A stretch of DNA of 29,410 bases from a virus: the IMG/VR virus record IMGVR_UViG_3300045988_055400, positions 1 to 29,410 of that record. One strand, 5' to 3'. The position numbers and the translations under genes were made by a program. The notes under the pieces are model-generated. The model was not told the origin of the DNA. It saw only the letters and a list, made by a program, of their open reading frames with translations, and did no database searches. Position 1 is the first letter of the stretch, and each line of letters begins with the position of its first letter. Below are positions 4,095 to 17,407 of the stretch, one piece after another.

Positions 4095-4101
4095 ATCCTT
4101 A

Positions 4102-4695: not shown

Positions 4696-4722
4696 TTATG
4701 GCTCCTTTTGTCGGGTCGGTGG

Positions 4723-5079: not shown

Positions 5080-5124
5080 TGGTTGTTCCTTTTGTGTTCG
5101 TCAAGCTCTTTGCTTGATATGTTC

Positions 5125-5164: not shown

Positions 5165-5228
5165 ACAATTCGTAGATTTTCCTGTGCTCACCGTCTCCTG
5201 TAAGACATGAGGATCGTGAGTGCGAGCA

Positions 5229-5572: not shown

Positions 5573-5922
5573 TTGCTTTCCTCCTCTATCATTCGATCCA
5601 AGGCCTTGATGACGGCATGCCAGTCGCTGTTACGGATGCCATGCCATGCGATACGTTCCAAACCGTCGGTTGATTGTGCCAGTCTATGCAGGATGACCCC
5701 GCATGTGCTTGCCGTGTACGTTAGTTCGTGTCTTATGGCTGCGAGTCGTGCGTACCATCGTGCTTTCTTCAGGTCTTCGATTGGTTGTCCTTTTGACTTG
5801 TGTCGCCACAAGTATTTGATGACGTTCCCAGTGCTGAAGCATTGGTATTTGGCGAGGACGATGCATTCGTAGCCGATGTTGCGGTGATTGTAATGGGTTG
5901 GATGGTTGACGGTGTTTTTCAT
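5569..5922 (-). CDS. DUF3310-family protein, 117 aa
   Basis: The segments HPTHYN, ECI, FSTGNVIKYLWRHKSKG and IEDLKKARWY fit the DUF3310 pattern. RBS AAAGGAA. The track ORF (5569..6201) extends upstream of the real start. Confidence 0.75.
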   Translation of the reverse strand: MKNTVNHPTHYNHRNIGYECIVLAKYQCFSTGNVIKYLWRHKSKGQPIEDLKKARWYARLAAIRHELTYTASTCGVILHRLAQSTDGLERIAWHGIRNSDWHAVIKALDRMIEEESK

Positions 5923-6371
5923 GCTTGTTCCTTTCGGGTGGATTCGGTTTCCAGTTTCTTGGCTTTGGCTTTGGCCCGGCGTATGCGGGCCCGTTCCCTC
6001 TGTTTCCTGACGTATTCGGCTTTCTGCTCCGGGGTCATGGCGTGGTAGCGTTCTCGTTGTCTGGCGAGCATCGCTTCCCTCCATTCGGGGTCGGAGTGGT
6101 AGCGTTCTCGAGCGGTTTCGCGCTTCTTTTTCATGATCTTTGGGTTGCTGTGGTATTCTTTTTGTTTTTCTGCGTAGTGTTCGGCGTGTGACTCTCTCCA
6201 TTTGCGGTTCGCTTCAGCTCGTTCTTCCTTGTGTCGGCGGTAGTACTTCCAGTTGCTGATTTTGCGCCGTTCGTCCGCTGTTGGTTGACTGTTGCGCATT
6301 TCATTTATCCAGGCCATCGTGTCATCGTCATCGAGGTTGATGATGATTGGCTCTTTTTTCTTGCGGCTCAT
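5919..6371 (-). CDS. Highly basic Arg/Lys/Glu-rich repeat protein, 150 aa
   Basis: Repeated RxxY(H/Y)...P(E/K) units: NWKYYRRHKEE, EHYAEKQKEYHSNP, RERYHSDPEW and RERYHAMTPEQ. ATGA overlap with the downstream gene. Confidence 0.65.
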   Translation of the reverse strand: MSRKKKEPIIINLDDDDTMAWINEMRNSQPTADERRKISNWKYYRRHKEERAEANRKWRESHAEHYAEKQKEYHSNPKIMKKKRETARERYHSDPEWREAMLARQRERYHAMTPEQKAEYVRKQRERARIRRAKAKAKKLETESTRKEQA

Positions 6372-6384
6372 TGTTTTTTTCTTT

Positions 6385-6678
6385 TCAGAAGTAGATTGCG
6401 ATGAGGTTGGCGAGGTCTTCCGGGGATGTGAGGTCCGTGACGGCCTTGTCGAACAGGGTGCTGGTTGCAATGGTGTTGCCTGCCTTGTCGTATAGGATCA
6501 TGTCGATGAGATTTCCCTCGACTGGTGTGACCCACAGTTTCTTGCCTGAGTTGCGTTCGGTGATTTCAAATGAGGTCCCGTAGTCGTTGAGGTCGATTGT
6601 TTTTGCCGTGTAGTTGTTTCCGGAGGCGTTTAGCCTGTCAAGGATTTCGAGGGCGATGGTGTTTGGTTCGATGGTCAT
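6385..6678 (-). CDS. Hypothetical protein, 97 aa
   Basis: ORF with RBS AAAGGAC. Confidence 0.7.
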   Translation of the reverse strand: MTIEPNTIALEILDRLNASGNNYTAKTIDLNDYGTSFEITERNSGKKLWVTPVEGNLIDMILYDKAGNTIATSTLFDKAVTDLTSPEDLANLIAIYF

Positions 6679-6709
6679 TTGTGGTCCTTTTGTTTTGTTT
6701 GGCGGATTG

Positions 6710-7003
6710 TCAGAGGTGGTGTTTGATGTCGTCGATGATGGAGTCGAGTGGGATTTGTTCGTCTTCGGAGGACCGGTAGATGGGCTCGTATTCCACGAAG
6801 TAGCCCCTGTTCGGGTCGTCGTGGCCTATGGCTACTACGTCGTCGTCGTCGTCATTGTCCAGTGTGATGTACATGGTGTTGTCTGAGTCTTCTTTTGTGA
6901 GGATGATGGTGTTTTCGTTGGCGACGAGTTTTTCGTCGTATTCGTATGGTAGGCATCCGTTGAGGATATGGAATAGGGCTTGTATGTTTGTGTTCTTGTT
7001 CAT
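6710..7003 (-). CDS. Strongly acidic hypothetical protein, 97 aa (DNA-mimic-like composition)
   Basis: Start at ATG 7003 after AAGGAAA. By my count there are 23 Asp/Glu against about 6 Lys/Arg, including a DNDDDDD run. Confidence 0.7.
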   Translation of the reverse strand: MNKNTNIQALFHILNGCLPYEYDEKLVANENTIILTKEDSDNTMYITLDNDDDDDVVAIGHDDPNRGYFVEYEPIYRSSEDEQIPLDSIIDDIKHHL

Positions 7004-7047
7004 TTTGGTTTCCTTTTTATTTGGTGGCGTTGTTTTCCTTGCCTGAT

Positions 7048-7083
7048 ATTTAACACTGTACATACACGCGTGGTATGACACGC
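7048..7083 (-). promoter_or_regulatory. Motif-family site (GGCGTGTCA...) with TGTTAAAT extended -10-like box
   Basis: Minus strand reads GGCGTGTCATACCACGCGTGTATGTACAGTGTTAAAT. Confidence 0.4.
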
Positions 7084-7093
7084 CGAGGGTATG

Positions 7094-7122
7094 AAAAAAA
7101 GTGGCATGCTGTTGCGCATGCC
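7094..7122 (-). terminator. Rho-independent terminator after the DnaC-like gene
   Basis: GGCATGC / GCATGCC form a 7-bp stem. The plus-strand A7 run (7094-7100) gives a U-tract on the minus strand. Confidence 0.65.
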
Positions 7123-7134
7123 GCCTTAGGGTCG

Positions 7135-7980
7135 CTAGAGGCCGAGGAGTCTTGCCATGTCGGCCGAATCGTCGCGGAGCTTCTTCTCACGCCTGTCAGC
7201 GCCTTTCATTTCGATCGGCACGCACATTTCGAGCAGCCGTGAATAGATGCGTTTCCTGTCGACGGAGCTCGGGTTCTTTAGATCGGCTTGTGTGAGATTG
7301 GATGTTACGATGAGTGGTTTGCCGCTCCGGTATCTGGAGTCGATGATGTTGAAGATCATCTCGTTCATGAAGGATGTGTCGCGTTCTGCGGCTAGGTCGT
7401 CGATGACGAGCAGGTCAAGACGGTTGAGGTCGTCGAGGTAGCGTTGTTTGCCGTCGAACGTTCCTTGGAGGGTGTTGGTAATCCTTGCGAAGTTGGTTAC
7501 GAGGCATGGACGTCCTTGGTTGATGAGTTCGTTGGCGATGCAAGCTGCTGTATATGTTTTGCCAGTGCCGACCGTACCGTACAGAAGCAGTCCTTTGCCG
7601 CGTTTCTTCATTTCCTGGAAGTTGTCGACGTATTTGTGGGCGATGCTCGTTGTCTTCGGGTCTGTTCCGTCGTCGTTGGCGAAGGTCCAGTCGGCCATTT
7701 CACTGTCGGGGAAGCCGAGTTTGCGGAGTCGGTTTACTTCGACGCGAAGGTTTTGTGCCTGTCGGGCCTGTTCTTCTGCGTTCCGGCGTTCGCGTGCGCA
7801 GTCGCAGGGCGTGTATGGTTTCTTCTCCTTGCCGTCCCATGTGGCGATGAAGCGGCATTGTTTTGGCGTATGGCATTTGCCGCATGTGAGGAGGCCGTCT
7901 TCGTTGAGGTAGTCGCCTTCTTCGTAGTGGCTGTTTTTGTTTGCTTCGTGGATCATGGTTTCGATGAGGTTGGTTTTCAT
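7135..7980 (-). CDS. DnaC/IstB-like AAA+ helicase loader
   Basis: Walker A GTVGTGKT and Walker B LLVIDDL, with N-terminal Cys pairs CGKC...CDC. Start is ATG 7980; an alternative ATG at 8034 lies inside a hairpin and has no RBS. Confidence 0.85.
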   Translation of the reverse strand: MKTNLIETMIHEANKNSHYEEGDYLNEDGLLTCGKCHTPKQCRFIATWDGKEKKPYTPCDCARERRNAEEQARQAQNLRVEVNRLRKLGFPDSEMADWTFANDDGTDPKTTSIAHKYVDNFQEMKKRGKGLLLYGTVGTGKTYTAACIANELINQGRPCLVTNFARITNTLQGTFDGKQRYLDDLNRLDLLVIDDLAAERDTSFMNEMIFNIIDSRYRSGKPLIVTSNLTQADLKNPSSVDRKRIYSRLLEMCVPIEMKGADRREKKLRDDSADMARLLGL

Positions 7981-8004
7981 TTGTGGTTCATTTTCTTTTA
8001 CTTG

Positions 8005-8051
8005 AGATAATGTTATCTCACGTGTTGCCGGCATTGTGTGCCGGCGTGTCG
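8005..8051 (-). promoter_or_regulatory. Inverted repeats plus a CGACACGCCGGCA motif between the rep and loader genes
   Basis: GAGATAA-TG-TTATCTC at 8005-8020. GCCGGCA / TGCCGGC hairpin at 8027-8045. Motif at 8043-8051. Confidence 0.4.
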
Positions 8052-8055
8052 TGGG

Positions 8056-8793
8056 TTAGAACCAGCCGTTTTCGCGGGTGCATTCAGGTAGATGGCCGTC
8101 GGCATCCTGTGCGAGGGGTGTGGCGTTGGTGTTGGGTCGAATGGTCGTTCGGGCGTTGAGGTAGCCCTCGAATTTGTTACCGAAGAGGGTTTCCGGTCGG
8201 AGGAATTTTACCATTTCCGGGTTGTTGAGCCATTCTGCGCATTTCTTGTCGATGACCAGCTTCATATCGTCGACGGTAAAGCCTTCCTTGAGGCGGGTTT
8301 TGACTAGTTTGCGAGTGTTTACGGTGGTGGGCTTGTATTTGGTGCCGGCACGGCGGTTTAGGTGGTTTACGACCTCTTCGGTGGGGTCTGGATCCTTTGG
8401 CCGTGCGGGGGCTTGCGGCTCGTCGATGAGCGGTTGTGGTTCGATGGTGTCGTGTTCCGTCGTGGTGTCGGGCGGGGCTTGCACGTCGTTCTGTCGTGCG
8501 GCGATTTCCGGTGGGACGGCCGTGTAGTCGCACATGCGGATTCCGTTCACGTATTTTTCATGCTTGACGATGAGCTTGTCGGTGAGCAGTGACGCGAGGG
8601 TGTTGTCGACGGTCCGCATGGAGCATCCACACCATTCCGCGATGTATCGTCTGGTGCCGGAGAATTTGGAGTTTTCGTCTTGCGAGAAGCCGTAGATGAG
8701 GGCGTAGACGATGAGTTCGTAGCCTTTGAGGTTGAGTTTGGTGCGCATCCATCCTTGGATTGCGATGAAGTTGTTGTCTTTTACTGCTGACAT
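8056..8793 (-). CDS. Replication organiser: N-terminal wHTH plus C-terminal conserved phage domain (Phg_2220_C-like)
   Basis: N-terminal LKGYELIVYALIYGFSQDE...RYIAEWCGCSMRTVDNTLASL. C-terminal VVNHLNRRAGTKYKPTT...LVIDKKCAEWLNNPEMVKFLRPETLFGNKFEGY. RBS GAAGGAAA before ATG 8793. Confidence 0.75.
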   Translation of the reverse strand: MSAVKDNNFIAIQGWMRTKLNLKGYELIVYALIYGFSQDENSKFSGTRRYIAEWCGCSMRTVDNTLASLLTDKLIVKHEKYVNGIRMCDYTAVPPEIAARQNDVQAPPDTTTEHDTIEPQPLIDEPQAPARPKDPDPTEEVVNHLNRRAGTKYKPTTVNTRKLVKTRLKEGFTVDDMKLVIDKKCAEWLNNPEMVKFLRPETLFGNKFEGYLNARTTIRPNTNATPLAQDADGHLPECTRENGWF

Positions 8794-8927
8794 GATATTT
8801 CCTTCTGGGTAAAGTAAATCCCACTGACTGCTACCGTCTCCACCCGGTGGCAATCAATGGGATTCGTACCATTCCAAGTTATTTGCTCCATCCAAGCGGT
8901 GGAGCACTCGGAATGGCGTATGCCTCT

Positions 8928-8956
8928 AGCATACCACGTTTTCTAGACGACACGCC
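8928..8956 (-). promoter_or_regulatory. Promoter-like cassette for rep (GGCGTGTCGTCTAGAAAACGTGGTATGCT)
   Basis: Family motif plus a TGgTATGCT extended -10-like box. Confidence 0.5.
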
Positions 8957-8957
8957 G

Positions 8958-9248
8958 CTATATTCGGGTTATCGCATACCAGCTGAGGCAGCCGTAATGA
9001 ACCATGCTGAACAGTCCCTCATCCTCAAGCTTTCCGAGGGCCTTGGAAACGATGACTGCGGGCAGGTCCGGGAACATCCGGGGAAAATCCTTATAGGGCA
9101 TCCGAACCTAATAACGGCCGACATGATAGTGGCGCTGCCGCCTCCTCTGTTTCCGGTAGTAGTCGTAGAGCGGAGCATAGACGGTCGCCGCGGAAAAACC
9201 CAGTCTCTCGACCGGTTCAGGCATGGACGGAAGATTCTTCAAAGTCAA
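8958..9248 (-). pseudogene. Winged-helix-like ORF interrupted by one in-frame TAG (9108-9110): pseudogene or amber read-through gene
   Basis: Hand translation: (L)TLKNLPSMPEPVERLGFSAATVYAPLYDYYRKQRRRQRHYHVGRY-TAG-VRMPYKDFPRMFPDLPAVIVSKALGKLEDEGLFSMVHYGCLSWYAITRI. GAGGAGGA lies ahead of the TTG/ATG starts. Confidence 0.5.
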
Positions 9249-9490
9249 TCCTCCTCGATGAAAGAGCAGAAGAGACTCCGATTGTAGAGAATGCCTCCAA
9301 GCTTCGAAAGTGCGGTCACCGGATTATCCTATTTCCTGCATGCGATATCCCAAGCCTTAAGGACTTCATCGTTACCGAACTTCGAGCACAGGCCCGAGAA
9401 GAACTTCCGTGCCTTCTGCTCGCCTTCTCCACTGAAGTGGACGCCATACCGTTCAACGAGAGTATTTCCGATGGTGTCATAAACGCTCAT
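9245..9490 (-). pseudogene. DnaD-C-terminal-like ORF interrupted by one in-frame TAG (9329-9331): pseudogene or amber read-through gene
   Basis: MSVYDTIGNTLVERYGVHFSGEGEQKARKFFSGLCSKFGNDEVLKAWDIACRK-TAG-DNPVTALSKLGGILYNRSLFCSFIEED. The TGA stop overlaps the next ORF start as TTGA. Confidence 0.5.
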
Positions 9491-9526
9491 TATGTGATCT
9501 TTTTCTTGCCGTTGGCGTTTACCTCA

Positions 9527-9556
9527 AGCATACCACAAAGCATCGAAAAGCATCAA
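9527..9556 (-). promoter_or_regulatory. Sigma70-like promoter for the amber-containing ORFs (TTGATG-18-TATGCT)
   Basis: Minus strand reads TTGATGcttttcgatgctttgtggTATGCT. The GTGGTATGCT is shared with the rep promoter at 8928-8937. Confidence 0.45.
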
Positions 9557-9572
9557 AAGGCAAGGTATAGAT

Positions 9573-9628
9573 ACTTACTGCACATTCGCATCATCACCTC
9601 ACTTACTGCACATTCGCATCCTCACCTC
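9573..9628. repeat. 28-bp tandem direct repeat x2 (ACTTACTGCACATTCGCATC[A/C]TCACCTC), with a partial third unit
   Basis: Units at 9573-9600 and 9601-9628 differ at one base. Each carries CTGCAcattcGCA, which resembles the 10614-10696 sites. Confidence 0.9.
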
Positions 9629-9698
9629 ACTCACGTTCAACCCGGTCACCGCCATGCCCTGTTTCTTGATAGAGGGAGCGAGCTCCGGTAGAGAGAGT

Positions 9699-9744
9699 AA
9701 GCCTTAAGGGCTAAAGCGTTTTTTAGTGCTTTAGGTTAAGGCTT
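9699..9744 (+). promoter_or_regulatory. Bulged 16-bp hairpin followed by a T-rich tail
   Basis: AAGCCTTAA-GGG-CTAAAGC, loop GTTTTTTAGT, then GCTTTAG-G-TTAAGGCTT, followed by GTTGATTGTTT. Confidence 0.5.
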
Positions 9745-10013
9745 GTTGATTGTTTCCGTCAGTCGGTCGTCCGTACGGCGTCGGTCATAAGAGTGATGTA
9801 TTACTATCACTGATGCGGCATGCCCCAGCAGGTCGCGCTACATCTTTGATGTGATGGTGTCGGCATCCCGGTTGTTCCACCATCGCCTGTTGGGTCGGTT
9901 GAACTTCGCACCTCTAACGTGAGTATCAACCAACTATTAGTGGTTGTTCCCTTTACCTAAAGCAAGGACTGTAGCCGGGGAGTTTTTTCATGCCTCCGCA
10001 CCTGAGAGGCTTA

Positions 10014-10084
10014 TGCTATACTCGGATTTTACGGTTATTTTCAACCCCTATTATAGCGCATCGCTGTAGTGGGGGTTTCTTTTA
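10014..10084 (+). ncRNA. Candidate ~55-nt transcript: extended -10 promoter plus intrinsic terminator
   Basis: TGcTATACT at 10014-10022. A 14-bp stem (10043-10056 with 10064-10077) has three G-U pairs valid only for plus-sense RNA. The loop is CGCATCG and TCTTTT follows. Confidence 0.45.
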
Positions 10085-10150
10085 TGTCATCCACGCATTC
10101 GCATGGCATTCCTCTCTCACGCTTTCCACCGCACATGCCTCCAGAACGCA

Positions 10151-10237
10151 CGTAAAGGCCCCTCAAACCGATTTTCCCGTCAAACCCGATAACTCGTTAG
10201 GACTCGCTCACGACAGCCCATCAGAAAGGCCTTTACG
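10151..10237 (+). other. Long-range perfect 10-bp helix (CGTAAAGGCC / GGCCTTTACG) enclosing 67 nt
   Basis: Read directly. The strand is assigned only by context. Confidence 0.35.
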
Positions 10238-10417
10238 CAAGAAAGTGACGCTCCAGCATCAAAAAGTACCGAAAAGCATCGAAAGCGCCAAGCCATGAGA
10301 GAACCACCCAAGCCAAGTAAGGACCAACTCTCCTCTCTGCCTTCTCTCGGATCGAGTATCGGAGCCAAGGCCCGAAGGGCAGCATCGAAACCAAGCCTGT
10401 ACCCTCCTCGGTACTCA

Positions 10418-10463
10418 GAGCCATGGAAGAAGTTCCGAGACATCAGGTCAGACACCATGGCTC
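10418..10463 (+). other. Perfect 9-bp inverted repeat (GAGCCATGG / CCATGGCTC) enclosing 28 nt
   Basis: Read directly. Confidence 0.35.
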
Positions 10464-10527
10464 CACTCCGTAGTCACCGAAGCCATCAAGGCTTGTTCTT
10501 GGAGACTGGTTTCGTTTCTCTCTCTCT

Positions 10528-10554
10528 GGAAAGAAAGATTTTATCTTTCTTTCT
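10528..10554. other. A/T-rich purine-pyrimidine hairpin (GAAAGAAAGAT-TTT-ATCTTTCTTTC) flanked by CT repeats
   Basis: Read directly. An 11-bp stem. Confidence 0.5.
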
Positions 10555-10613
10555 CTCTCTTTAGAGTATTTACTAGAATATCCCTATATCTTATAGAGAT
10601 CTATATTATAGAG

Positions 10614-10696
10614 TTGCAAATTTTGCAGCTTCCTTGCTGTAAATTCTGCAGTACCCCCACTGCATATTTTGCGGTACAGTGCTGCAATGATTGCAG
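10614..10696. repeat. Four phased 15-bp palindromic sites (consensus CTGCA-N5-TGCAG): iteron/operator array
   Basis: Sites are TTGCAAATTTTGCAG (10614), CTGTAAATTCTGCAG (10637), CTGCATATTTTGCGG (10660) and CTGCAATGATTGCAG (10682). Spacing is 23, 23 and 22 bp. An AT-rich tract at 10561-10613 precedes them. Confidence 0.8.
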
Positions 10697-10779
10697 TGGG
10701 TGCGCAATCGTACGGGGAACTGTCTGAGGGTTCACACGTGGCACGCACCCTTGGTTGAACACGAACCATCGGCAATGAC

Positions 10780-10829
10780 AAAAAAGCCCCAGCCAGTCCG
10801 GGATTCTCTTCCCAAGACCAACCGGGGCC
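10780..10829 (-). terminator. Intrinsic terminator after the dut-DUF1064 operon
   Basis: Minus-sense stem CCCCGGUUGGUCU / GGACUGGCUGGGG with several G-U pairs, followed by CUUUUUUG (plus-strand A-run at 10780-10785). Confidence 0.6.
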
Positions 10830-10847
10830 ATGACCATTCCTACGCCG

Positions 10848-11183
10848 TCACGTCTCCTTGATGCTCATGCCGTACCGTCGTGCGAAGAGCTTGCGCTTAA
10901 GCCTATATATGTCGGTTCTCATGCCCTTGACGTCCTCGACGACCGTCTTGCCGTCCTCCACGTAAACGAAGTCCGCCACGTAGGAAACAGGCCGGTAATG
11001 ACTGCCGTCCACATCAAAGGCCGGCACGAGCTCATAACGCACCTGACGGCGCAGATCCTCGATGCTTCCGTCCTCCTCCATGCCTTTTAGGACGAGATAC
11101 CTGTCAGCCTCCCTCTTCGAGTCAAAAGTGACGCCGTCGACGCATGTTTTCTTTGCGTGGTATTTGCTTCGTCCGCTCCACAT
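10848..11183 (-). CDS. DUF1064-family protein (RecU/PD-(D/E)xK-like, putative junction resolvase)
   Basis: KYHAKKTCVDGVTFDSKREADRY, YVADFVY and VVEDVKG fit the DUF1064 pattern. RBS GGGAGG. Confidence 0.75.
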   Translation of the reverse strand: MWSGRSKYHAKKTCVDGVTFDSKREADRYLVLKGMEEDGSIEDLRRQVRYELVPAFDVDGSHYRPVSYVADFVYVEDGKTVVEDVKGMRTDIYRLKRKLFARRYGMSIKET

Positions 11184-11186
11184 GGC

Positions 11187-11597
11187 TTACCTCCCGGTAC
11201 TTCCGAAACCGTTGTCGCCACGCTCTGTCGCATTGAACGCGGAGACCTGTTCTGCCGATTCGCAGACCACCGGAATCACGACCAGCTGCGTGATCTTATC
11301 CCCGGCCTCGAACCCATAGTCTTCACCTCCGTGGTTGTAGAGCTTGACTACGATGCTTCCGGTGTATTCCTCGTCGATGAGTCCGGTGCTCGTGATGGAG
11401 TGCTTGACATTGAGGCCACTCTTGCTGACGAGCAGTCCAGCACATCCGTGCGGCAGTGCGACGTGCACTCCTGTGTCTACCGTGACGTTTGAGTAGGCCG
11501 GTACGGTCACCGCCACCGGCGTGCGCAGGTCCAGTCCCGCATCGGTCTTATAGGTTCGTGTCGGCATGTATGCGTCGTTGTTTAGCATGATTTCCAT
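11187..11597 (-). CDS. dut: dUTP diphosphatase
   Basis: Motifs AGLDLRTP, GLIDEEYTGSI and ERGDNGFGSTGR. RBS GGAAGGAA. Confidence 0.9.
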   Translation of the reverse strand: MEIMLNNDAYMPTRTYKTDAGLDLRTPVAVTVPAYSNVTVDTGVHVALPHGCAGLLVSKSGLNVKHSITSTGLIDEEYTGSIVVKLYNHGGEDYGFEAGDKITQLVVIPVVCESAEQVSAFNATERGDNGFGSTGR

Positions 11598-11629
11598 AAC
11601 GTGTTCCTTCCTGTGGTATAGTCGTCAAT

Positions 11630-11662
11630 GTCGGAAAGTTTTTTTTGGTTTCCCTTTCCGAC
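11630..11662. other. Perfect 9-bp hairpin (GTCGGAAAG / CTTTCCGAC) upstream of dut
   Basis: Read directly. The 15-nt loop is T-rich. Confidence 0.4.
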
Positions 11663-11682
11663 TGCCTTTCTATTATATAAAA

Positions 11683-11725
11683 ATACCCACTCGGACAACT
11701 GTTCGGGTGGGTATCGTTTTTTTTT
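11683..11725. terminator. Bidirectional terminator
   Basis: ATACCCAC...GTGGGTAT stem flanked by A5 upstream and T9 downstream (11717-11725). Confidence 0.7.
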
Positions 11726-11734
11726 ACGTTTGTG

Positions 11735-11944
11735 TCAGCGCTTGCTGTAGCCGCCGCTCAGGGCCTTGACGAGCCAGTAGAAGAAGTAGATGCCGCCAGT
11801 AAGGAAGCTATATACGCACACCTTGATGAAGCCTGGGGCCTTCTTCTTACCACTATTGTCCGTCTGAGGCGCAGACACGTTGTTGATGATGATGGGCTGC
11901 TGGGTCGGCTGGGTTTCCGTCTGGTTGGTTTCCTGCTCGGTCAT
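11735..11944 (-). CDS. Small membrane protein, 69 aa (single-gene unit)
   Basis: The N-terminus is Thr/Gln-rich. The C-terminal TM segment is FIKVCVYSFLTGGIYFFYWLV. RBS AAAGGAA. Confidence 0.75.
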   Translation of the reverse strand: MTEQETNQTETQPTQQPIIINNVSAPQTDNSGKKKAPGFIKVCVYSFLTGGIYFFYWLVKALSGGYSKR

Positions 11945-11999
11945 TTTTATTCCTTTCAGTTGGGTAGGTTTTTGATGCCCTACGTTGTTTGATGTACTC

Positions 12000-12029
12000 A
12001 GAGTATCATGCCACGTTAAGTGACACGCC
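12000..12029 (-). promoter_or_regulatory. Leftward promoter-like cassette (GGCGTGTCACTTAACGTGGCA-TGATACTCT)
   Basis: Family motif abutting a TGnTACTCT box. Confidence 0.5.
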
Positions 12030-12059
12030 GAACAGTCGATGGTCTACCGCACACGTCGG

Positions 12060-12088
12060 TTGCAATCCGATAAAAACGACGCTATATT
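12060..12088 (+). promoter_or_regulatory. Strong sigma70-like rightward promoter (TTGCAA-17-TATATT)
   Basis: Read directly. The spacer was counted as 17 nt. Confidence 0.65.
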
Positions 12089-12130
12089 GGTACTCGTCCC
12101 TCATTATGTACTGACCTACCTCAGACAAAT

Positions 12131-12173
12131 GCTCAACCGGCTTCCACGCATACCACCGGTTGAGCACTTTTTT
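12131..12173 (+). terminator. Intrinsic terminator ~40 nt downstream of the rightward promoter
   Basis: GCTCAACCGG / CCGGTTGAGC form a 10-bp perfect stem, followed by ACTTTTTT. Confidence 0.75.
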
Positions 12174-12232
12174 ATATCCAAAACCCTACAATCCTCTCCA
12201 CACATGCCTGTGACACACCAATACGAAATAAG

Positions 12233-12262
12233 TTGTAGGAAACACTCAAACCGTTATATAAT
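12233..12262 (+). promoter_or_regulatory. Promoter TTGTAG-18-TATAAT, 7 nt before ATG 12270 (leaderless arrangement)
   Basis: Read directly. Confidence 0.55.
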
Positions 12263-12269
12263 AAGACCT

Positions 12270-12449
12270 ATGAACGCTAAAGATTACACAGCAACAGTCC
12301 CCGAATACGCCAAGCGCTGGAAGCTCAACATTCAGACCGTCCGCCGCTTCATCCGCGAAGGACGACTCCACGCAGTCAAGGTCGGCCGATGCTACTTCCT
12401 CGACCCGGACGTCATTCCCGACAAGGACAGACGCTCGGCCAACGAGTAG
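12270..12449 (+). CDS. Excisionase/MerR-type HTH (HTH_17-like) DNA-binding protein, 59 aa
   Basis: YAKRWKLNIQTVRRFIREGRLHAVKVGRCYFLDPD. There is no RBS, and TATAAT lies 7 nt upstream. Confidence 0.7.
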   Translation: MNAKDYTATVPEYAKRWKLNIQTVRRFIREGRLHAVKVGRCYFLDPDVIPDKDRRSANE

Positions 12450-12471
12450 CCATCCGACCAACCAACCATTC

Positions 12472-12498
12472 AAGGGGTGAACGTACCGTTCGCCCCTT
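12472..12498 (+). terminator. 12-bp hairpin without a U-tract (I-shaped terminator or processing site)
   Basis: AAGGGGTGAACG / CGTTCGCCCCTT with one G-U pair that forms only in plus-sense RNA. Confidence 0.4.
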
Positions 12499-12528
12499 AA
12501 CCATCACCAAGCAAGGAAAGGCAACAAA

Positions 12529-12912
12529 ATAAACACCGAAATCCAACCATTCGAATTCGAAAACAATCAGGTCAGAGCATTCACCGACGGCGACGAAGTA
12601 ATGTTCGTCGCAACCGACATCGCGAAGATCCCCTCGAACGCCGGCATGCCAATCGGAGAAAAGGAACTACGCGAATGGCTTAAACAACACGATTGGATAT
12701 CCCGACACGCCGGAACATGGAGTGCGGCTTCGGAACGGGTGAAAACCGGACGCTTGGCCATGGTGGAGTCAAGATCACACGGACGACATAAGGACGGCAG
12801 CACCTTCGCGTTCGCCCCGACTGTCAAAATCACCTGCAGAGGCCTGGCACTACTTCACACGCGACTCAGCGAAACCCGCATGAACGAAAATCTCGAAACA
12901 ACCACTCACTGA
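12529..12912 (+). CDS. Antirepressor-like protein (Bro-N plus KilA-C-like); 5' boundary unresolved, canonical ATG only at 12601
   Basis: The in-frame sequence upstream of ATG 12601 reads NTEIQPFEFENNQVRAFTDGDEV-MFVATDIAKI, which is a Bro-N core. The frame is open from 12481 with no ATG/GTG/TTG. RBS AAGGAAAGG at 12513-12521 is 7 nt before ATA 12529. The C-terminal ERVKTGRLAMVE...VKITCRGLALL is KilA-C-like. Confidence 0.6.
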   Translation: MNTEIQPFEFENNQVRAFTDGDEVMFVATDIAKIPSNAGMPIGEKELREWLKQHDWISRHAGTWSAASERVKTGRLAMVESRSHGRHKDGSTFAFAPTVKITCRGLALLHTRLSETRMNENLETTTH

Positions 12913-12934
12913 CAAAAAGAAAGGCTCAACACCT

Positions 12935-13378
12935 ATGCACGATCCACACATCATCCTCCCCTCTGCCCGCCTCGTCGCCGACCCAGAACAGAAACAGTCC
13001 AAAAACGGCACCCCATACCTGCTCATCCGCGTAGCCGCCAACGGCTCTCACAAGGACAAGCAGACCGGACAATGGATCAACCACGACACCATGTTCGCTA
13101 CCATCTTCGAATACGACCAGCGTCTCGCGGCCACCTACATGCAATCACTGCACAAAGGTACCCCGGTACGCGTCGAGGGAGACCTGAAATGGTCTATAGG
13201 TACCGACCGTAACGGGCAACCACACACCAACTTCACCATCAACTACGCGACCATCACCATGGTCCTCCAGAAAGTCAAGCAGCAGCAGCAGCAGGAGCAG
13301 TCCCGACCACAGGCCACCAGTTACGCTCCACCTGCACAGCAGGACCCCTACAACGACCCATACGCCGAAGAATGGTAA
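12935..13378 (+). CDS. ssb: Single-stranded DNA-binding protein
   Basis: OB-fold pattern (RLVADPE...NGTPYLLIRVAAN...VRVEGDLK), a Gln/Pro-rich linker and an acidic aromatic tail PYAEEW. Confidence 0.8.
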   Translation: MHDPHIILPSARLVADPEQKQSKNGTPYLLIRVAANGSHKDKQTGQWINHDTMFATIFEYDQRLAATYMQSLHKGTPVRVEGDLKWSIGTDRNGQPHTNFTINYATITMVLQKVKQQQQQEQSRPQATSYAPPAQQDPYNDPYAEEW

Positions 13379-13384
13379 AAAGAA

Positions 13385-13534
13385 ATGAAAACACCCACGA
13401 ACAATAACGACAATCCGATCGGATATTGGCTAGGCCGCATCCTCGCCTACCTCACCATCATCCTGACCACACTGCTCGTAACCGGAGGAGGTATTGCACT
13501 CTTGAAACTCCTCATCGACTTCATTCTCAACTAA
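13385..13534 (+). CDS. Small membrane protein, 49 aa
   Basis: Hand translation: MKTPTNNNDNPIGYWLGRILAYLTIILTTLLVTGGGIALLKLLIDFILN. Confidence 0.5.
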   Translation: MKTPTNNNDNPIGYWLGRILAYLTIILTTLLVTGGGIALLKLLIDFILN

Positions 13535-13538
13535 ACCC

Positions 13539-13572
13539 AAGCCTCTCCAACAACACGGAGAGGCTTTCTTCT
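13539..13572 (+). terminator. Intrinsic terminator
   Basis: AAGCCTCTCC / GGAGAGGCTT form a 10-bp perfect stem, followed by TCTTCT. Confidence 0.6.
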
Positions 13573-13579
13573 AAACAGA

Positions 13580-13585
13580 TATAAT
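13580..13585 (+). promoter_or_regulatory. TATAAT box 7 nt upstream of the terS ATG (leaderless arrangement)
   Basis: Read directly. There is no convincing -35. Confidence 0.4.
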
Positions 13586-13592
13586 CAGTCAT

Positions 13593-13982
13593 ATGACAGA
13601 CGTGACAAGAGATCATCGAGGCCGCATCACCGGTGGCGTCCTCAACCCCACCGGCAAAGGTGGATTCCAGGAACGACCAGAAGACCGAGGCTCATGGACC
13701 AAAGACACCAGCCCCACCCGATGGATGCGCGAATTCAGCAAACTCACCATAACGGAAATCAACGAAAAAGCAAAAGACCCGACCTTGACGATGGTGCAGC
13801 GAATCGCCATCAAACACGTCCTTAACGCATATAAGGACCCGCGCGTGACATCCGACTACATCGACAGGCTGGACGGCAAAGCACGCCAATCCACTGACGT
13901 GACCGTCACCGGCTACGAGCCGCCGCACATCACCCTCGAAATCTTTGACGACAACCCGAAAAACGATAAGGACGACCAGTAG
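13593..13982 (+). CDS. terS: Terminase small subunit
   Basis: NPTGKGGFQERPEDRGSW motif, typical of one small-terminase family. Position immediately before terL. Confidence 0.65.
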   Translation: MTDVTRDHRGRITGGVLNPTGKGGFQERPEDRGSWTKDTSPTRWMREFSKLTITEINEKAKDPTLTMVQRIAIKHVLNAYKDPRVTSDYIDRLDGKARQSTDVTVTGYEPPHITLEIFDDNPKNDKDDQ

Positions 13983-13999
13983 ACACGTAAACTGGGAGT

Positions 14000-15259
14000 A
14001 TGCAGATAGCAAAACCTTACCGAGACCTATGGTGGTGGCTCCACACGGAGACACCACCATATCGTTATTACTGTTATTCCGGCGGCAGGGCCTCAGGTAA
14101 GAGCACCGCCGTCGCTCAAAGCCTCATTCTCCGCGCCTCCGTACAGCCAATCACCGTCCTCTGCGCACGCGAATTCCAGAATTCCATCACCGACTCCGTA
14201 TACAAGCTCCTCACCGGCACCATCGAAAAATTCGGCCTGCAAGGCTTCGAAATCCGACGCGACGGCATCGGCCACGTCAACGGCAGCAGCTTCATCTTTC
14301 GCGGCCTGCACGACAATATTCAATCCATAAAAAGCATCGAAGGCATCGACGTCTGCTGGATAGAGGAAGCCCAAACCATCAGCCAGGCAAGCCTGACGAC
14401 GCTTATTCCGACCATCCGCAAGACCAACTCGACACTGATATTCACTTGGAATCCGCTTACCAGCCACGACCCGGTCTGGACATACTTCATCACCACAGAC
14501 TCCAAAGAACGCCTGCGCCAGACATGCCACTGGCACACTACATACGAGGATGTACGCCGCCTCATCAGCCAAGACGTCCTCGATATGATCGAAGCCGACA
14601 AACAAACAGCCGACTACGGACACGTCTGGCTTGGCCTGCCATACGCGGACACCGACAACCAGCTCATCAGCGACGCCATGCTCAACGAAGCCCTCCACCG
14701 TACACCATCGGACGGCCCCGTCACCTTCGGAGTCGACGTCGCACGATATGGCAACGACCGCACAGCCCTCACCATCAAACAAGGCAATCGGATCGAAACC
14801 CTCGAATCATGGACCCACACAAGCATCGTCGAAACCGCCGAAAGGATCAAACTCCACGCTTCACGACACCAGCCGATCGACATTCGAATCGACGACACCG
14901 GCGTAGGTGGAGGGCTTACCGACTTGCTCAAATCATGGGGACTGCCAGCCACCGGCATCAACTACGCCGGCAAACCAAAGGATCCGCAATACCCCAACAT
15001 CGCATCCGAACTCTGGTTTGACTTCGCAAACATGCTCCCCCAGCTCGGCATCAACCCGCGAATCCCCGATCTAGCCAAGCTCACCACCGAACTGATCACA
15101 CGCAAATGGCACATAAACAGCCGCAACCAACGCCAAATCGAAAGCAAACAAGACTACAAAGACGCTATGAACCTTGGAAGCCCGGATTTGGCCGACAGCC
15201 TACTCCTTGCATGCTACGAGCCACCGAAACTCCCCTCATGGGACGTCATAGTCTGCTGA
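14000..15259 (+). CDS. terL: Terminase large subunit
   Basis: Walker A YSGGRASGKS, Walker B-like DVCWIEEA and a C-terminal nuclease region (FGVDVARYGNDRTAL). RBS GGGAG. Confidence 0.9.
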   Translation: MQIAKPYRDLWWWLHTETPPYRYYCYSGGRASGKSTAVAQSLILRASVQPITVLCAREFQNSITDSVYKLLTGTIEKFGLQGFEIRRDGIGHVNGSSFIFRGLHDNIQSIKSIEGIDVCWIEEAQTISQASLTTLIPTIRKTNSTLIFTWNPLTSHDPVWTYFITTDSKERLRQTCHWHTTYEDVRRLISQDVLDMIEADKQTADYGHVWLGLPYADTDNQLISDAMLNEALHRTPSDGPVTFGVDVARYGNDRTALTIKQGNRIETLESWTHTSIVETAERIKLHASRHQPIDIRIDDTGVGGGLTDLLKSWGLPATGINYAGKPKDPQYPNIASELWFDFANMLPQLGINPRIPDLAKLTTELITRKWHINSRNQRQIESKQDYKDAMNLGSPDLADSLLLACYEPPKLPSWDVIVC

Positions 15260-15313
15260 CCTAACAGGTAATATACTGAAGACACACAATCCTACTAGTA
15301 AATCGAGGACAAA

Positions 15314-17407
15314 ATGACCTTGCTCAACAATATCCGCGCTGGCTTCGAGAGCGCATTCGGTCGAACCAACGCCCCCCACAACACCCCCACACCGGCAAGC
15401 GGCAACACATGGCAGCCGCTCGGAGGCAACACCATTCCGATGCACGACACCTACGACAACATCTTCCCCTACGTCAACGCCATCGCACAACGCTTCAGCA
15501 CCATCATCCCCTACGCAGTCACCACCGACGGCCGCAAACTCGAACCGATACCAGCCGCACTGACCGCACTCTACGCACCAAACGACACCTACAGCTGCCT
15601 CGAATTCCTGAAACTCATCGCTTCAGGCATCCTCACCCAATCACACGTCGACATCCTCGTCTGGACAAACGAAGGCCCCGGCGGCAACATCACCCCGAAC
15701 AACATCACCGGCTACACCATCCTCCCAACCAACAGCCGCGTATACAACGACAACCGCTCCAACTGGTACCACCGCGTAACCATGGACCTCGGCAACGGAC
15801 TACGCCAATACGAATTCACCCGCAACGAAACCATCTCACTAAGCTACAGCCGCCACCCAAACGACCCGACACGCGGCATCAGCCCCGCCATGACAATCAA
15901 AAAATGGGCCAACGTCGACGACATGATAGCCGACTACGAACGCGGCTTCTTCGGCAACAACGCCGTCCCGGCCGGCATGCTCGGCATCGTCTCCGAAAAC
16001 ACCGAAGACTTCCAACGAAACCGAGCACGCCTTGAAAACACCTTCCGCGGAGCTGGCAACAACAACGGCATCGTCTATAACCTGATCCCGGTCGATCCCA
16101 CCACACACAAGCCAAGCACAGCCAGCAAACTCATCTGGACGCCATTCCAGAACTCAAATGACACACTCGACCTGCAAACCGTCTCCAACGTCGTCAACAA
16201 CCGACTCGCCAACGCGCTCGCAGTCCCCGACATCATCCGAGGCATCGACAACGGCCAAACCTACGCCAACGCCGAAATGGCCGAACGCGCCTTCATCGAA
16301 AACACCCTCAAACCACTCTGCATGACAGTATGGGACAAATGGCAGTTCGAACTCGACCGAATCACGGGCGGACTCGGCTACGGCATCACATTCGACCTCA
16401 ACCTGCCAGCCCAAACCGAAGTCGAACGAATCCAAGCCGAAACACAGCAAATCCGCGTTAACACCCTCACCCAACTCATAAACCTCGGAGTGACCATCGA
16501 AAGCGCCGTGGAAGCACTCAACCTACCAGAATCATACCGACGCCTCGCACTGCACCGGACTGACGCCACCACGCCACCAAACCACTCCACACAAAAAAGG
16601 AACGCACGACCCATCGAACCGACTAAAAACACGACGACCGAAGACCACATCCTAACCGTCACACGCACATACATGAACCGAATCATCCGCCTCGCCAACC
16701 GCTCCCACAACAGCCTGACAGACGACCTCGAAACCATCGGCAAACAATGGGTCAACGACGTAAAAGACGACCTCCTCACCCACCTCGCCGACTATGCGCG
16801 CAAAACCGGCATGAAACTCGAACAAGTCATCACCGCATGGAGCGAACTCCACCCGGAACGGCCACTCGCCGTCGACATCCAGTCCTACACGACAACCGAC
16901 TGGCAAAAACTCTACGACTGGACCACACTGCCGGACAACGTCAAAACAGCATACGAACGCCACCTACAGGAAATAGCCAACACGACATCAAGAACAGTCA
17001 CAGACAAAACATTGGAACTCCTGAACCGGGCCGACAGGGAACAATGGGACGCACCCCGACTCCGTGAAACACTCGACCGACTCGGAAACGACCACGCCGA
17101 ACTAATCGCCAGATGCGAAACCGTCCAATCCCAAAGGCTCGGCAGCCTATACAGCGCCCGTAACCTAAGCGAAACATTAGGAGTCAAACTGCAAAAGGTA
17201 TGGCGTACCACCGGTGACGGAAACACATGCGACTTCTGCCGTCACATGGAAGGAACGACGATACCGCTCGACTCCACCTACATGGCAAAAGACGCGAACA
17301 TCAACATCAACGGCCACGACTACGTGAACAGCTTCGAAAACATGGCCACGCCGAACGCGCATCCGAACTGCCGTTGCTACGAAGACTACGAAGTAGTTGA
17401 GGACTAA
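15314..17407 (+). CDS. Portal and MuF-like (SPP1 gp7-type) fusion protein
   Basis: The size, position after terL and N-terminal ~430 aa are portal-like. The C-terminus has WRTTGDGNTCDFCRHMEG...HPNCRCY, a MuF head-morphogenesis signature. Confidence 0.8.
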   Translation: MTLLNNIRAGFESAFGRTNAPHNTPTPASGNTWQPLGGNTIPMHDTYDNIFPYVNAIAQRFSTIIPYAVTTDGRKLEPIPAALTALYAPNDTYSCLEFLKLIASGILTQSHVDILVWTNEGPGGNITPNNITGYTILPTNSRVYNDNRSNWYHRVTMDLGNGLRQYEFTRNETISLSYSRHPNDPTRGISPAMTIKKWANVDDMIADYERGFFGNNAVPAGMLGIVSENTEDFQRNRARLENTFRGAGNNNGIVYNLIPVDPTTHKPSTASKLIWTPFQNSNDTLDLQTVSNVVNNRLANALAVPDIIRGIDNGQTYANAEMAERAFIENTLKPLCMTVWDKWQFELDRITGGLGYGITFDLNLPAQTEVERIQAETQQIRVNTLTQLINLGVTIESAVEALNLPESYRRLALHRTDATTPPNHSTQKRNARPIEPTKNTTTEDHILTVTRTYMNRIIRLANRSHNSLTDDLETIGKQWVNDVKDDLLTHLADYARKTGMKLEQVITAWSELHPERPLAVDIQSYTTTDWQKLYDWTTLPDNVKTAYERHLQEIANTTSRTVTDKTLELLNRADREQWDAPRLRETLDRLGNDHAELIARCETVQSQRLGSLYSARNLSETLGVKLQKVWRTTGDGNTCDFCRHMEGTTIPLDSTYMAKDANININGHDYVNSFENMATPNAHPNCRCYEDYEVVED

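What the first reader, a model, noticed from the sequence alone, without database searches (positions are those of the whole stretch)
10561..10696. AT-rich tract plus four phased 15-bp palindromes: candidate origin or operator array
Four copies of CTGCA-N5-TGCAG start at 10614, 10637, 10660 and 10682. The 23/23/22-bp spacing is about two helical turns, so all sites face one side of the helix. A 53-bp tract immediately precedes them, and I count it at about one quarter G+C. The array lies in a zone protected from read-through by the terminator at 10780-10829. It is ~1.8 kb from the rep gene and ~2.6 kb from the DnaC-like loader gene. Iterons next to an AT-rich unwinding element are the classic layout of phage and plasmid origins. 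A repressor operator array or a centromere-like site are alternatives.
Basis: partly seen in the sequence, partly recalled or inferred. Interest (0 to 1): 0.65.

Follow-up and report, generated by a model that had tools for sequence, protein, structure and literature searches.

The report
Phage replication origin with matched iterons
This is most likely the replication origin of an uncultured human-gut phage: four repeated binding sites for the phage's own initiator protein lie beside the most easily melted DNA in the genome, which is an ordinary kind of element but is well supported here because the sites change in step with the initiator across related phages.

Summary
Four 15-bp dyad-symmetric sites start at 10614, 10637, 10660 and 10682. 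One matches CTGCA-N5-TGCAG exactly and three have one mismatch. They sit next to a 24.5% G+C tract, which is the least stable duplex in the 29.4-kb circular genome.

In 37 related gut-phage genomes the same position always holds 3-6 repeats spaced 21-24 bp, but the repeat sequence falls into at least seven types. The type tracks the N-terminal winged-helix domain of the PF09524 replisome organiser (8056-8793). This is the SPP1 G38P family. No other gene within reach tracks it, although the DNA between the two loci has recombined.

Within the window's type, Arg or Lys at residue 60 of the recognition helix goes with TGCAG or TACAG half-sites (9/9 and 6/6 genomes). Eleven of eleven predictions made from the protein sequence alone were correct.

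Best reading (about 0.78): an iteron-plus-unwinding-element origin of the lambda O / SPP1 G38P type, lying 1.8 kb outside the rep gene in an exchangeable cassette. Operator, centromere and packaging-site readings are not supported. It is a new member of a known kind.

Seen in passing: a roughly 440-nt structured non-coding RNA candidate with no Rfam match, directly beside the cassette.

The parts
10614..10628 (.). Iteron 1, TTGCAAATTTTGCAG (dyad-symmetric, one mismatch to CTGCA-N5-TGCAG). It is the best conserved site among the type-A relatives.
10637..10651 (.). Iteron 2, CTGTAAATTCTGCAG
10660..10674 (.). Iteron 3, CTGCATATTTTGCGG
10682..10696 (.). Iteron 4, CTGCAATGATTGCAG (exact palindrome arms). 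It is the most variable site among relatives.
10560..10613 (.). AT-rich tract (24.5% G+C) made of short repeats about 11 bp long (TAGAGTATTTAC / TAGAATATCC / CTATATCTTATAGAG / CTATATTATAGAG). Candidate DNA unwinding element and the least stable duplex in the genome.
   Evidence: The short-repeat family changes with the family of the Rep N-domain.
10528..10554 (.). Perfect 11-12 bp AT-rich hairpin (GGAAAGAAAGAT-TTT-ATCTTTCTTTC[T]) at the left edge of the cassette. It occurs with cassette types A and C; other types carry G+C-rich hairpins here. Its role is unknown.
10697..10779 (.). Type-specific tail of the cassette, containing the motif CGTACGGGG (10711-10719) conserved in all type-A relatives.
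10780..10829 (-). Intrinsic terminator of the dUTPase-DUF1064 operon. It forms the conserved right border of the cassette.
8056..8793 (-). Rep, the replisome organiser (245 aa). It has an N-terminal winged helix (aa about 6-100), a disordered linker, and a C-terminal Phg_2220_C domain (PF09524, aa 141-213). Proposed iteron-binding initiator.
8581..8619 (-). Codons for the predicted recognition helix (aa 59-71, MRTVDNTLASLLT). Arg60 is encoded at 8614-8616, and its R/K state tracks G/A in the half-sites.
7135..8034 (-). DnaC/IstB-like AAA+ helicase loader directly downstream of rep.
9527..9556 (-). Predicted promoter of the p53-rep-loader operon (TTGATG-N18-TATGCT with an upstream TG). The -10 region is conserved in all relatives. 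It places the rep promoter 1.1 kb from the array.
   Evidence: consensus reading by eye, not a tool prediction

Best explanation
The region 10528-10779 is the replication-origin cassette of this phage. The phage has a roughly 29.4-kb circularly assembled genome and belongs to the human-gut Namikivirus/Umezonoviridae group.

Proposed mechanism, with every step inferred rather than shown:
- Dimers of the replisome organiser Rep (8056-8793) bind the four dyad-symmetric 15-bp iterons through the N-terminal winged helix. The recognition helix spans aa 59-71, and Arg60 reads the G of TGCAG.
- The four sites, spaced 22-23 bp, build a wrapped nucleoprotein complex.
- On supercoiled DNA this complex melts the adjoining AT-rich tract (10560-10613).
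- The C-terminal PF09524 domain of Rep, together with the neighbouring DnaC-like loader (7135-8034), places the host replicative helicase on the melted DNA. The phage SSB stabilises the bubble.
- Theta replication follows, probably handing over to recombination-driven replication through ERF and YqaJ, as in SPP1.

What is actually shown is the sequence anatomy, its conservation, and the exclusive co-variation of site sequence with the Rep DNA-binding domain. Binding, melting, helicase loading and origin activity are all inferred.
For: 1) The sites are real, non-random and unique in the genome.

2) The flanking tract is the global minimum of duplex stability (z = 5.1-5.2).

3) All 37 relatives examined carry 2-6 repeats spaced 21-24 bp at the same position. 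The repeats fall into seven sequence types.

4) An association scan used 200-nt tiles over window 1500-15500, comparing 6 type-A genomes with 21 others. Only two places separate the groups completely: tiles 8300-8799 (the Rep N-domain and linker) and the tile 10500-10699, which spans most of the array itself. The 1.5 kb between them is mosaic. Tiles 1-8300 show no separation either, and these include the HTH_3 and other winged-helix genes.

5) Clustering the Rep N-domains at 82% identity gives a clean cross-table: cluster 1 with type A in 13/13 genomes, cluster 2 with type C in 10/10, cluster 3 with type B or E in 9/9, cluster 4 with type D in 3/3, and two singletons with types G and F.

6) Within type A, residue 60 matches the second base of the right half-site. 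With Arg, 31 of 32 sites have G. With Lys, 17 have A, 2 have T and 1 has G, out of 20. Both classes occur with long and short intergenic regions, so the DNA between the two loci has recombined.

7) Eleven Rep homologues were chosen by protein sequence alone and their contigs fetched afterwards. All 11 carried the predicted array type or half-site variant.

8) Rep has PF09524 (E = 4e-28) and matches PHROG 428, annotated as replication initiation protein. SPP1 G38P belongs to the same Pfam family and binds repeated boxes beside an AT-rich unwinding element (PMC5737612).

9) The AlphaFold model gives a winged helix with residue 60 at the start of the recognition helix (pLDDT 76-90 across the domain). 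Its fold resembles DnaD-N and the staphylococcal RepA initiator-DNA complexes.

10) The rep operon has its own conserved promoter 1.1 kb away. The promoter scan finds none at the array.
Against: - No experiment exists. Co-variation shows that Rep very probably binds the sites, not that binding starts replication.
- Unlike SPP1 oriL and lambda ori, the sites are not inside the initiator gene. They lie 1.8 kb away, beyond small genes and about 1 kb of conserved non-coding DNA.
- Cumulative GC skew peaks near 9 kb but follows the direction of transcription, so it gives no independent support.
- The array sits between convergent transcription units, which does not by itself favour melting.
- Many relatives carry a second cassette that does not match their Rep, so possessing a cassette does not prove that it is used.
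- Two genomes of Rep cluster 3 carry type E repeats instead of type B, so the correspondence between protein and site is not strictly one to one.
- The sampled genomes are related, so the counts are not independent events.
- The fold-search E-values are weak (1e-3 to 3e-2).
Confidence: 0.78

Rival explanations
1. Rep binds the array, but the array acts as a transcriptional operator. It might autoregulate Rep or control the neighbouring non-coding transcripts rather than start replication. Alternatively it has both roles, as in iteron plasmids.
For: Co-variation with the Rep DNA-binding domain is equally expected for an autoregulatory site. Read on the minus strand, the AT-rich tract contains TTGCAA-N18-TATAAG, with the TTGCAA inside iteron 1 (read by eye). 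The adjacent block 9645-10498 is conserved and probably transcribed.
Against: The rep operon has a conserved extended -10 promoter immediately upstream of its first gene, 1.1 kb from the array. The promoter scan reports nothing at the array. Relatives that lack most of the non-coding block keep the cassette. Four phased sites beside the least stable DNA of the genome match the layout of an origin rather than an operator.
Confidence: 0.12
2. The array is a binding site for a different protein: a centromere-like partition site, a terminase (pac/cos) recognition site, or an operator of the phage's lysis-lysogeny regulators.
For: Phased repeat arrays also occur in parS, pac and operator regions. 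Several assemblies break or carry gaps exactly in the array.
Against: The array type does not co-vary with the putative small terminase gene (13593-13982), the ANT gene, the HTH_17/excisionase-like gene (12039-12449) or the HTH_3 gene (1826-2164). No ParA or ParB family appears in the source annotations or the Pfam scans. The array is 3 kb from the terminase genes. The contig breaks are explained by perfect tandem repeats longer than the assembler's word size; the overlaps are 45-77 nt.
Confidence: 0.04
3. The repeats are a by-product of recombination at a junction between mosaic modules and have no sequence-specific function.
For: The cassette lies between two conserved recombination borders, the end of block M2 and the terminator. 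It is swapped or duplicated among relatives.
Against: Copy number (3-6), spacing (21-24 bp) and dyad symmetry are kept across seven unrelated repeat sequences. Half-site bases are conserved while the spacers between sites vary. The amino-acid-to-base match has no explanation without function.
Confidence: 0.02

Closest known systems
Bacillus phage SPP1 oriL with the replisome organiser G38P (pfam09524) and loader G39P
   Same: The initiator belongs to the same Pfam family, PF09524, and has no AAA+ domain. Repeated initiator-binding boxes lie next to an AT-rich unwinding element. A helicase-loader gene follows the initiator gene directly. Phage SSB and recombination genes sit in the same early region.
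   Different: SPP1 oriL is embedded in gene 38; here the sites are 1.8 kb upstream in non-coding DNA. SPP1 encodes its own helicase (G40P) and a G39P-type loader; here the loader is DnaC/IstB-like and no phage helicase was found. The site sequences are unrelated. Similarity of the N-terminal domain to G38P was not tested.
Phage lambda ori with the O and P proteins
   Same: Both have four iterons, each an imperfect inverted repeat bound by dimers of the initiator's N-terminal domain, flanked on one side by an AT-rich tract. In both, the initiator's C-terminal part recruits the loader-helicase complex. Lambdoid phages likewise show allele-specific matching of initiator and iteron (PMC7466680; the last point rests on general knowledge).
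   Different: Lambda iterons are 19 bp and lie inside the O gene. O is not a PF09524 protein; the PHROG 'O-like' match is only E = 5e-5.
RepA_N initiators of staphylococcal multiresistance plasmids (pSK41 / pTZ2162) and their iterons
   Same: A winged-helix N-domain resembling DnaD-N binds repeated sites as a dimer. The fold search recovers these structures (5kbj, 4pql, 4pt7). Sources name some homologues 'Replication initiator protein A (RepA) N-terminus'.
   Different: The fold similarity is weak (E about 1e-2). Those are plasmid systems whose origin lies inside repA, and their C-terminal domain differs.
Non-coding origins of lactococcal and streptococcal phages, cloned as 'Per' phage-encoded resistance elements (recalled from memory, not checked here)
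   Same: These are intergenic origins made of direct and inverted repeats, separate from the rep gene. When extra copies are present they act as decoys for replication factors.
   Different: No sequence relationship is known. The comparison rests on recall only.

Membership tests
Iteron-plus-unwinding-element origin served by a PF09524 (G38P-type) replisome organiser | The initiator carries the Phg_2220_C / PF09524 domain and has no AAA+ module | tested here: met
   PF09524 E = 4.1e-28 at aa 141-213, with no ATPase domain. G38P is stated to be pfam09524.
Iteron-plus-unwinding-element origin served by a PF09524 (G38P-type) replisome organiser | A cluster of repeated sites specific to the initiator | tested here: met
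   Four sites, unique in the genome. The site type and a half-site base co-vary only with the Rep N-domain. All 11 of 11 predictions were correct. Physical binding itself cannot be tested here.
Iteron-plus-unwinding-element origin served by a PF09524 (G38P-type) replisome organiser | An AT-rich DNA unwinding element next to the repeats | tested here: met
   10560-10610 is the least stable 50-bp duplex of the genome, z = 5.1.
Iteron-plus-unwinding-element origin served by a PF09524 (G38P-type) replisome organiser | A helicase-loader gene linked to the initiator gene | tested here: met
   The DnaC/IstB-like AAA+ gene at 7135-8034 lies 22 bp downstream of rep.
Iteron-plus-unwinding-element origin served by a PF09524 (G38P-type) replisome organiser | The fragment supports initiator-dependent replication | not testable with these tools
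   Needs a plasmid replication assay or in vitro reconstitution.
Origins embedded in the initiator gene (lambda ori in O, SPP1 oriL in gene 38) | The repeats lie within the initiator's coding sequence | tested here: not met
   No iteron-like sites or comparable repeat array occur inside 8056-8793. The array is 1.8 kb upstream.
Operator array of a CI/Cro-type genetic switch | The sites lie between divergent promoters beside the repressor gene and co-vary with it | tested here: not met
   The array lies between convergent units. The scan finds no promoter there. The array type does not track the HTH_3 gene at 1826-2164 or the HTH_17 gene at 12039-12449.
parS-type centromere | ParA/ParB or an equivalent partition gene is present | tested here: not met
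   No partition family appears in the source Pfam annotation of window 1-19300 or in the scans. The remaining genes are structural. Not every ORF was scanned.
pac/cos packaging site | The site is next to, and co-varies with, the small terminase gene | tested here: not met
   The array is 3 kb from the ORF at 13593-13982. Tiles 13500-13999 do not separate array types.
DnaA-dependent origin | A cluster of DnaA boxes | tested here: not met
   TTWTCCACA with up to one mismatch gives 7 hits against 11.8 expected, and none near the array.

The most novel reading that the evidence does not exclude
The origin may be one allele of a plug-in specificity cassette: hairpin, three short repeats, about four iterons, and a tail. 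The cassette would be exchanged by recombination between two conserved borders and kept matched to a swappable Rep N-domain. The second, non-matching cassettes carried by roughly a third of the relatives would not be relics. They would act as decoy origins that soak up the initiator of co-infecting phages of another specificity type, giving a phage-against-phage exclusion device. Alternatively they would let the genome be replicated by a co-infecting relative. The adjacent conserved non-coding block, comprising the structured RNA M1 and the C/A-rich M2, might additionally regulate or prime initiation.
Probability: 0.15. Interest if true: 0.65.

Novelty: new member of a known kind. Interest (0 to 1): 0.42.

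Why it matters
Umezonoviridae were described only from metagenomes, as an abundant and prevalent family of human-gut phages. Nothing is known about how they replicate.

This work pins down the probable origin, its initiator, and a single amino-acid-to-base specificity rule (Arg60/Lys60 with G/A). That gives a directly testable model.

It also gives a natural set of about seven mutually orthogonal initiator-origin pairs. These could serve as compatibility groups or as replicon parts for gut Actinobacteria or Firmicutes.

The orphan cassettes offer a handle on competition between co-infecting phages.

In kind, though, this is the classic iteron-plus-AT-rich origin layout.

Tried and rejected
- DNA similarity to 50,697 GenBank phage records found no match for 9800-11600.
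- tRNA and Rfam searches found nothing in the region.
- GC skew gives a cumulative maximum near 9 kb, but it follows the direction of transcription and codon usage, so it was rejected as evidence for or against an origin.
- DnaA boxes are neither enriched nor near the array.
- The 1.36 kb next to the array showed no coding signal: no 3-base periodicity, stop codons conserved in all frames, and no gene called by the source pipelines.
- Block M2 (10102-10498) has no RNA covariation support on either strand beyond the slid controls.
- Block motifs were searched in one genome per GTDB species and gave 0 hits. The host and any prophage state therefore remain unknown. The nearest cultured phage by large terminase is a Bifidobacterium phage at 49% identity.
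- A sequence search of Rep against solved structures gave nothing useful.
- The apparent exceptions to the Rep-to-array rule (023566, 061117, 120038) disappeared once the full intergenic region was read. The matching array lies further from DUF1064, behind a second cassette.
- An N4-type Rep domain that could serve the orphan type-D cassettes was sought in the held flanks of those genomes and not found.
- The small winged-helix ORF between p53 and rep does not track the array type.

Full report
**What is in the sequence.** The window is a complete, circularly assembled phage genome with a 55-nt terminal overlap. It comes from human-gut metagenomes: identical stretches occur in at least four ENA assemblies. 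Rep homologues are named Namikivirus, family Umezonoviridae, a family defined from a Japanese gut virome survey.

Early genes run on the minus strand from about 9490 down to 131. dUTPase and DUF1064 (11597-10848) are also on the minus strand, and the structural genes run on the plus strand from about 12000.

Between DUF1064 and the next called gene (a 53-aa ORF at 9329-9490) lie 1357 nt in which no source pipeline calls a gene. The finding sits at the right end of this gap.

**Checking the observation.**
- The four sites are at the stated coordinates. One is exact and three carry one mismatch.
- With one mismatch allowed they are the only four hits in 29.4 kb. Shuffles give a mean of 0.81, and 0 of 100 reach four.
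- A looser consensus search finds no other convincing copy. There is no repeat array inside rep.
- Spacing is 23/23/22 bp.
- The 53-bp tract before the sites is 24.5% G+C. Positions 10560-10610 are the least stable 50-bp duplex of the genome (z = 5.1), and 10524-10624 is the least stable 100-bp stretch (z = 5.2).
- The 10780-10829 hairpin is a strong terminator on the minus strand only. It ends the dUTPase-DUF1064 transcript before the array.
- A 22-23 bp step is slightly more than two helical turns, so the sites spiral around the helix rather than sharing one face.

**Relatives.** Protein-anchored searches of IMG/VR returned 28 related genomes of 28-31 kb. All carry a comparable cassette at the same place, directly after the conserved DUF1064 terminator. 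The cassette consists of a hairpin, about three short repeats of 11-13 bp, then 2-6 longer repeats spaced 21-24 bp, then a tail.

The long repeats fall into at least seven sequence types:

| Type | Consensus repeat |
|---|---|
| A (the window's) | YTGYAAWTTTTRCAG |
| B | CTGATTTTGCGGCY |
| C | CCTCATTTTGAGG |
| D | TCGATACCTAGGTATYGA |
| E | TACTACGACAATCAAGGTAGGG |
| F | TTCGGAAGTTGAGTTCCGA |
| G | CACCCAAATTCATTTTAATCTT |

Types A, B and C share an ATTTTG core. Most types are dyad-symmetric.

**Which protein goes with the array.** I tiled window 1500-15500 in 200-nt steps. For each tile I asked whether the six type-A relatives are all more similar to the window than any of the 21 other relatives.
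- Only two places pass. One is tiles 8300-8799, the N-terminal half and linker of Rep, whose gene is on the minus strand. The other is the tile 10500-10699, which spans most of the array itself.
- Everything between them, 8900-10400, is mosaic.
- Fetching more of the early region showed no separation anywhere in 1-8300. That region includes the HTH_3 regulator.
- The small-terminase candidate, ANT and the HTH_17 protein do not separate the groups either.

Clustering the Rep N-domains at 82% identity gives a clean cross-table:

| Rep N-domain cluster | Array type | Genomes |
|---|---|---|
| 1 | A | 13/13 |
| 2 | C | 10/10 |
| 3 | B (7) or E (2) | 9/9 |
| 4 (unrelated N-domain) | D | 3/3 |
| two singletons | G, F | 1 each |

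Three apparent exceptions vanished on reading the full intergenic region. Those genomes carry two cassettes, and the matching one lies further from DUF1064.

**Fine-scale match and a prospective test.** Within type A the predicted recognition helix reads S-M-R/K-T-V-D-N-T.
- Genomes with Arg60 have TGCAG right half-sites: 31 of 32 sites have G at the second base.
- Genomes with Lys60 have TACAG: 17 A, 2 T and 1 G out of 20 sites. Their left half-sites shift to TGTA, which keeps the dyad symmetry.
- Both classes occur with long and short intergenic regions. The link therefore survives recombination of the intervening DNA.

As a test, I chose eleven further Rep homologues from the protein database by helix sequence alone and fetched their contigs afterwards. 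All eleven carried the predicted array: four Lys to TACAG, four Arg to TGCAG, two cluster-2 proteins to type C, and one cluster-3 protein to type B. The genomes are related, so these are not independent events, but the pattern is hard to explain without direct recognition.

**The protein.**
- Rep has a weak HTH_36 match at aa 20-69 and a strong PF09524 (Phg_2220_C) match at aa 141-213. It also matches PHROG 428, 'replication initiation protein'.
- The AlphaFold model has mean pLDDT 69.5, rising to 76-90 over the N-domain. It shows a winged helix with helices at 48-55 and 59-71 and a beta-hairpin wing at 75-92. Residue 60 is therefore at the start of the recognition helix.
- Fold search returns MarR/PadR regulators, the DnaD N-domain (2v79) and staphylococcal RepA initiator-DNA complexes (5kbj, 4pql, 4pt7), all with weak E-values.
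- The next gene downstream is a DnaC/IstB-like AAA+ loader.
- SPP1 G38P is a pfam09524 protein that binds repeated 'AB boxes' beside an AT-rich unwinding element and, with its loader, loads the helicase (PMC5737612).
- Lambda ori has four 19-bp imperfect inverted repeats beside an AT-rich tract (PMC7466680).

**Mechanism proposed.** Rep dimers bind the four iterons and wrap the DNA, and the adjacent AT-rich tract melts. The PF09524 domain and the DnaC-like loader then deliver the host helicase, and SSB, ERF and YqaJ support later steps. Only the anatomy and the co-variation are shown. Every biochemical step is inferred by analogy with G38P and lambda O.

**Rival explanations.**
- *Autoregulatory operator.* This would equally explain the co-variation. 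However, the rep operon has its own extended -10 promoter, conserved in all relatives, just upstream of its first gene and 1.1 kb from the array. No promoter is predicted at the array. The cassette also persists in relatives that lack most of the non-coding block. I give this reading about 0.12. It could also hold in addition to origin function.
- *Partition, packaging or switch-operator site.* These fail their defining features; see the membership table.
- *Recombination by-product.* This does not explain the conserved number, spacing and symmetry across unrelated repeat sequences.

**Comparison and novelty.** The element works like the SPP1 oriL and lambda ori systems, and its initiator belongs to the G38P Pfam family. 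It differs in lying outside the initiator gene, in a cassette bounded by two conserved recombination borders: the last 100 nt or so of block M2, and the terminator. It also relies on a DnaC-like loader with no phage helicase found. I rate it a new member of a known kind.

The less ordinary aspects are the allelic series of matched initiator-origin pairs, the single-residue specificity rule, and the frequent second 'orphan' cassettes. For these I found no matching Rep domain in the held flanks.

**Seen alongside.** The non-coding DNA next to the cassette is itself conserved at about 80-96% identity. It shows no codon periodicity: 0.106/0.114/0.103 by codon position, against 0.07/0.07/0.21 in the flanking genes.
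- *M1 (9645-10094).* This part is present in about 60% of relatives. It folds on the plus strand into 102 predicted pairs, and 97.6% of alignment cells are paired. Fourteen pairs show compensatory change, covering 52 cells. No shuffle out of 500 reaches that, and the slid controls give 3-9 cells. The same helices read on the other strand drop to 85% paired because of 228 G-U cells. M1 ends in a strong plus-strand terminator at 10043-10087 (-24.4 kcal/mol, z = -6.9). It has no Rfam match and was found only in this phage clade.
- *M2 (10102-10498).* This part is nearly universal and C/A-rich on the plus strand. It has no covariation support on either strand. Its conservation remains unexplained.

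Noticed in passing
window 9645-10094 (+): Block 'M1' is a candidate structured non-coding RNA of about 440 nt with no Rfam match. It has 102 predicted pairs, 14 of them with compensatory changes (52 cells; 0 of 500 shuffles reach this). Many invariant G-U pairs are valid only on the plus strand. It ends in a strong plus-strand intrinsic terminator at 10043-10087. It is present in about 60% of relatives and was found only in this gut-phage clade.
   Followed up: partly
window 10102-10498: Block 'M2' is non-coding DNA conserved at 85% mean column identity in nearly all relatives. It is strongly C/A-rich on the plus strand, shows no codon periodicity and has no RNA covariation support on either strand. 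Its last 100 nt or so are duplicated in front of every extra origin cassette. Its function is unknown.
   Followed up: partly
relatives, e.g. L103 (IMGVR_UViG_3300045988_023566), L104, L088, L091, L099, L202, L204: About a third of relatives carry two origin-like cassettes in tandem. One matches the resident Rep N-domain. The other, usually type D (TCGATACCTAGGTATCGA), has no matching Rep domain in the held flanks. These could be relics, decoys, or origins for use by a co-infecting relative.
   Followed up: partly
window 8964-9248 (-): A small winged-helix-like ORF between p53 and rep is interrupted by an in-frame TAG where relatives have TGG (Trp): GRY*VRMPY against GRYWVRMPY. The intact homologues are 99-121 aa. 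The same stop appears in several independent assemblies, so it is a pseudogene or a read-through gene rather than an isolated sequencing error.
   Followed up: partly
window 9573-9628: Two tandem 28-bp direct repeats (ACTTACTGCACATTCGCATCMTCACCTC) lie between the predicted rep-operon promoter and M1. Relatives carry different C/A-rich repeats at this position.
   Followed up: no
window 9527-9556 (-): A predicted extended -10 promoter (TTGATG-N18-TATGCT with an upstream TG) lies upstream of the p53-rep-loader operon. The GTGGTATRC core is conserved in all relatives examined.
   Followed up: partly
window 10711-10719 and homologous positions: The motif CGTACGGGG, 15-20 bp after the last iteron, is conserved in all 13 type-A cassettes although its surroundings vary. 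Its role is unknown.
   Followed up: no
L087/L025, L088/L017, L096/L022, L097, L195, L200: Several public assemblies of relatives break, or contain a run of N, exactly inside the iteron array. Perfect tandem repeats defeat short-read assemblers here, so copy numbers in these arrays may be under-reported.
   Followed up: no
whole window: Over most of the genome the coding strand is C- and A-rich (GC skew about -0.2 to -0.3 on the sense strand), the reverse of the usual purine-rich sense strand. The dUTPase-DUF1064 genes and the genes at 25-29 kb are exceptions.
   Followed up: no
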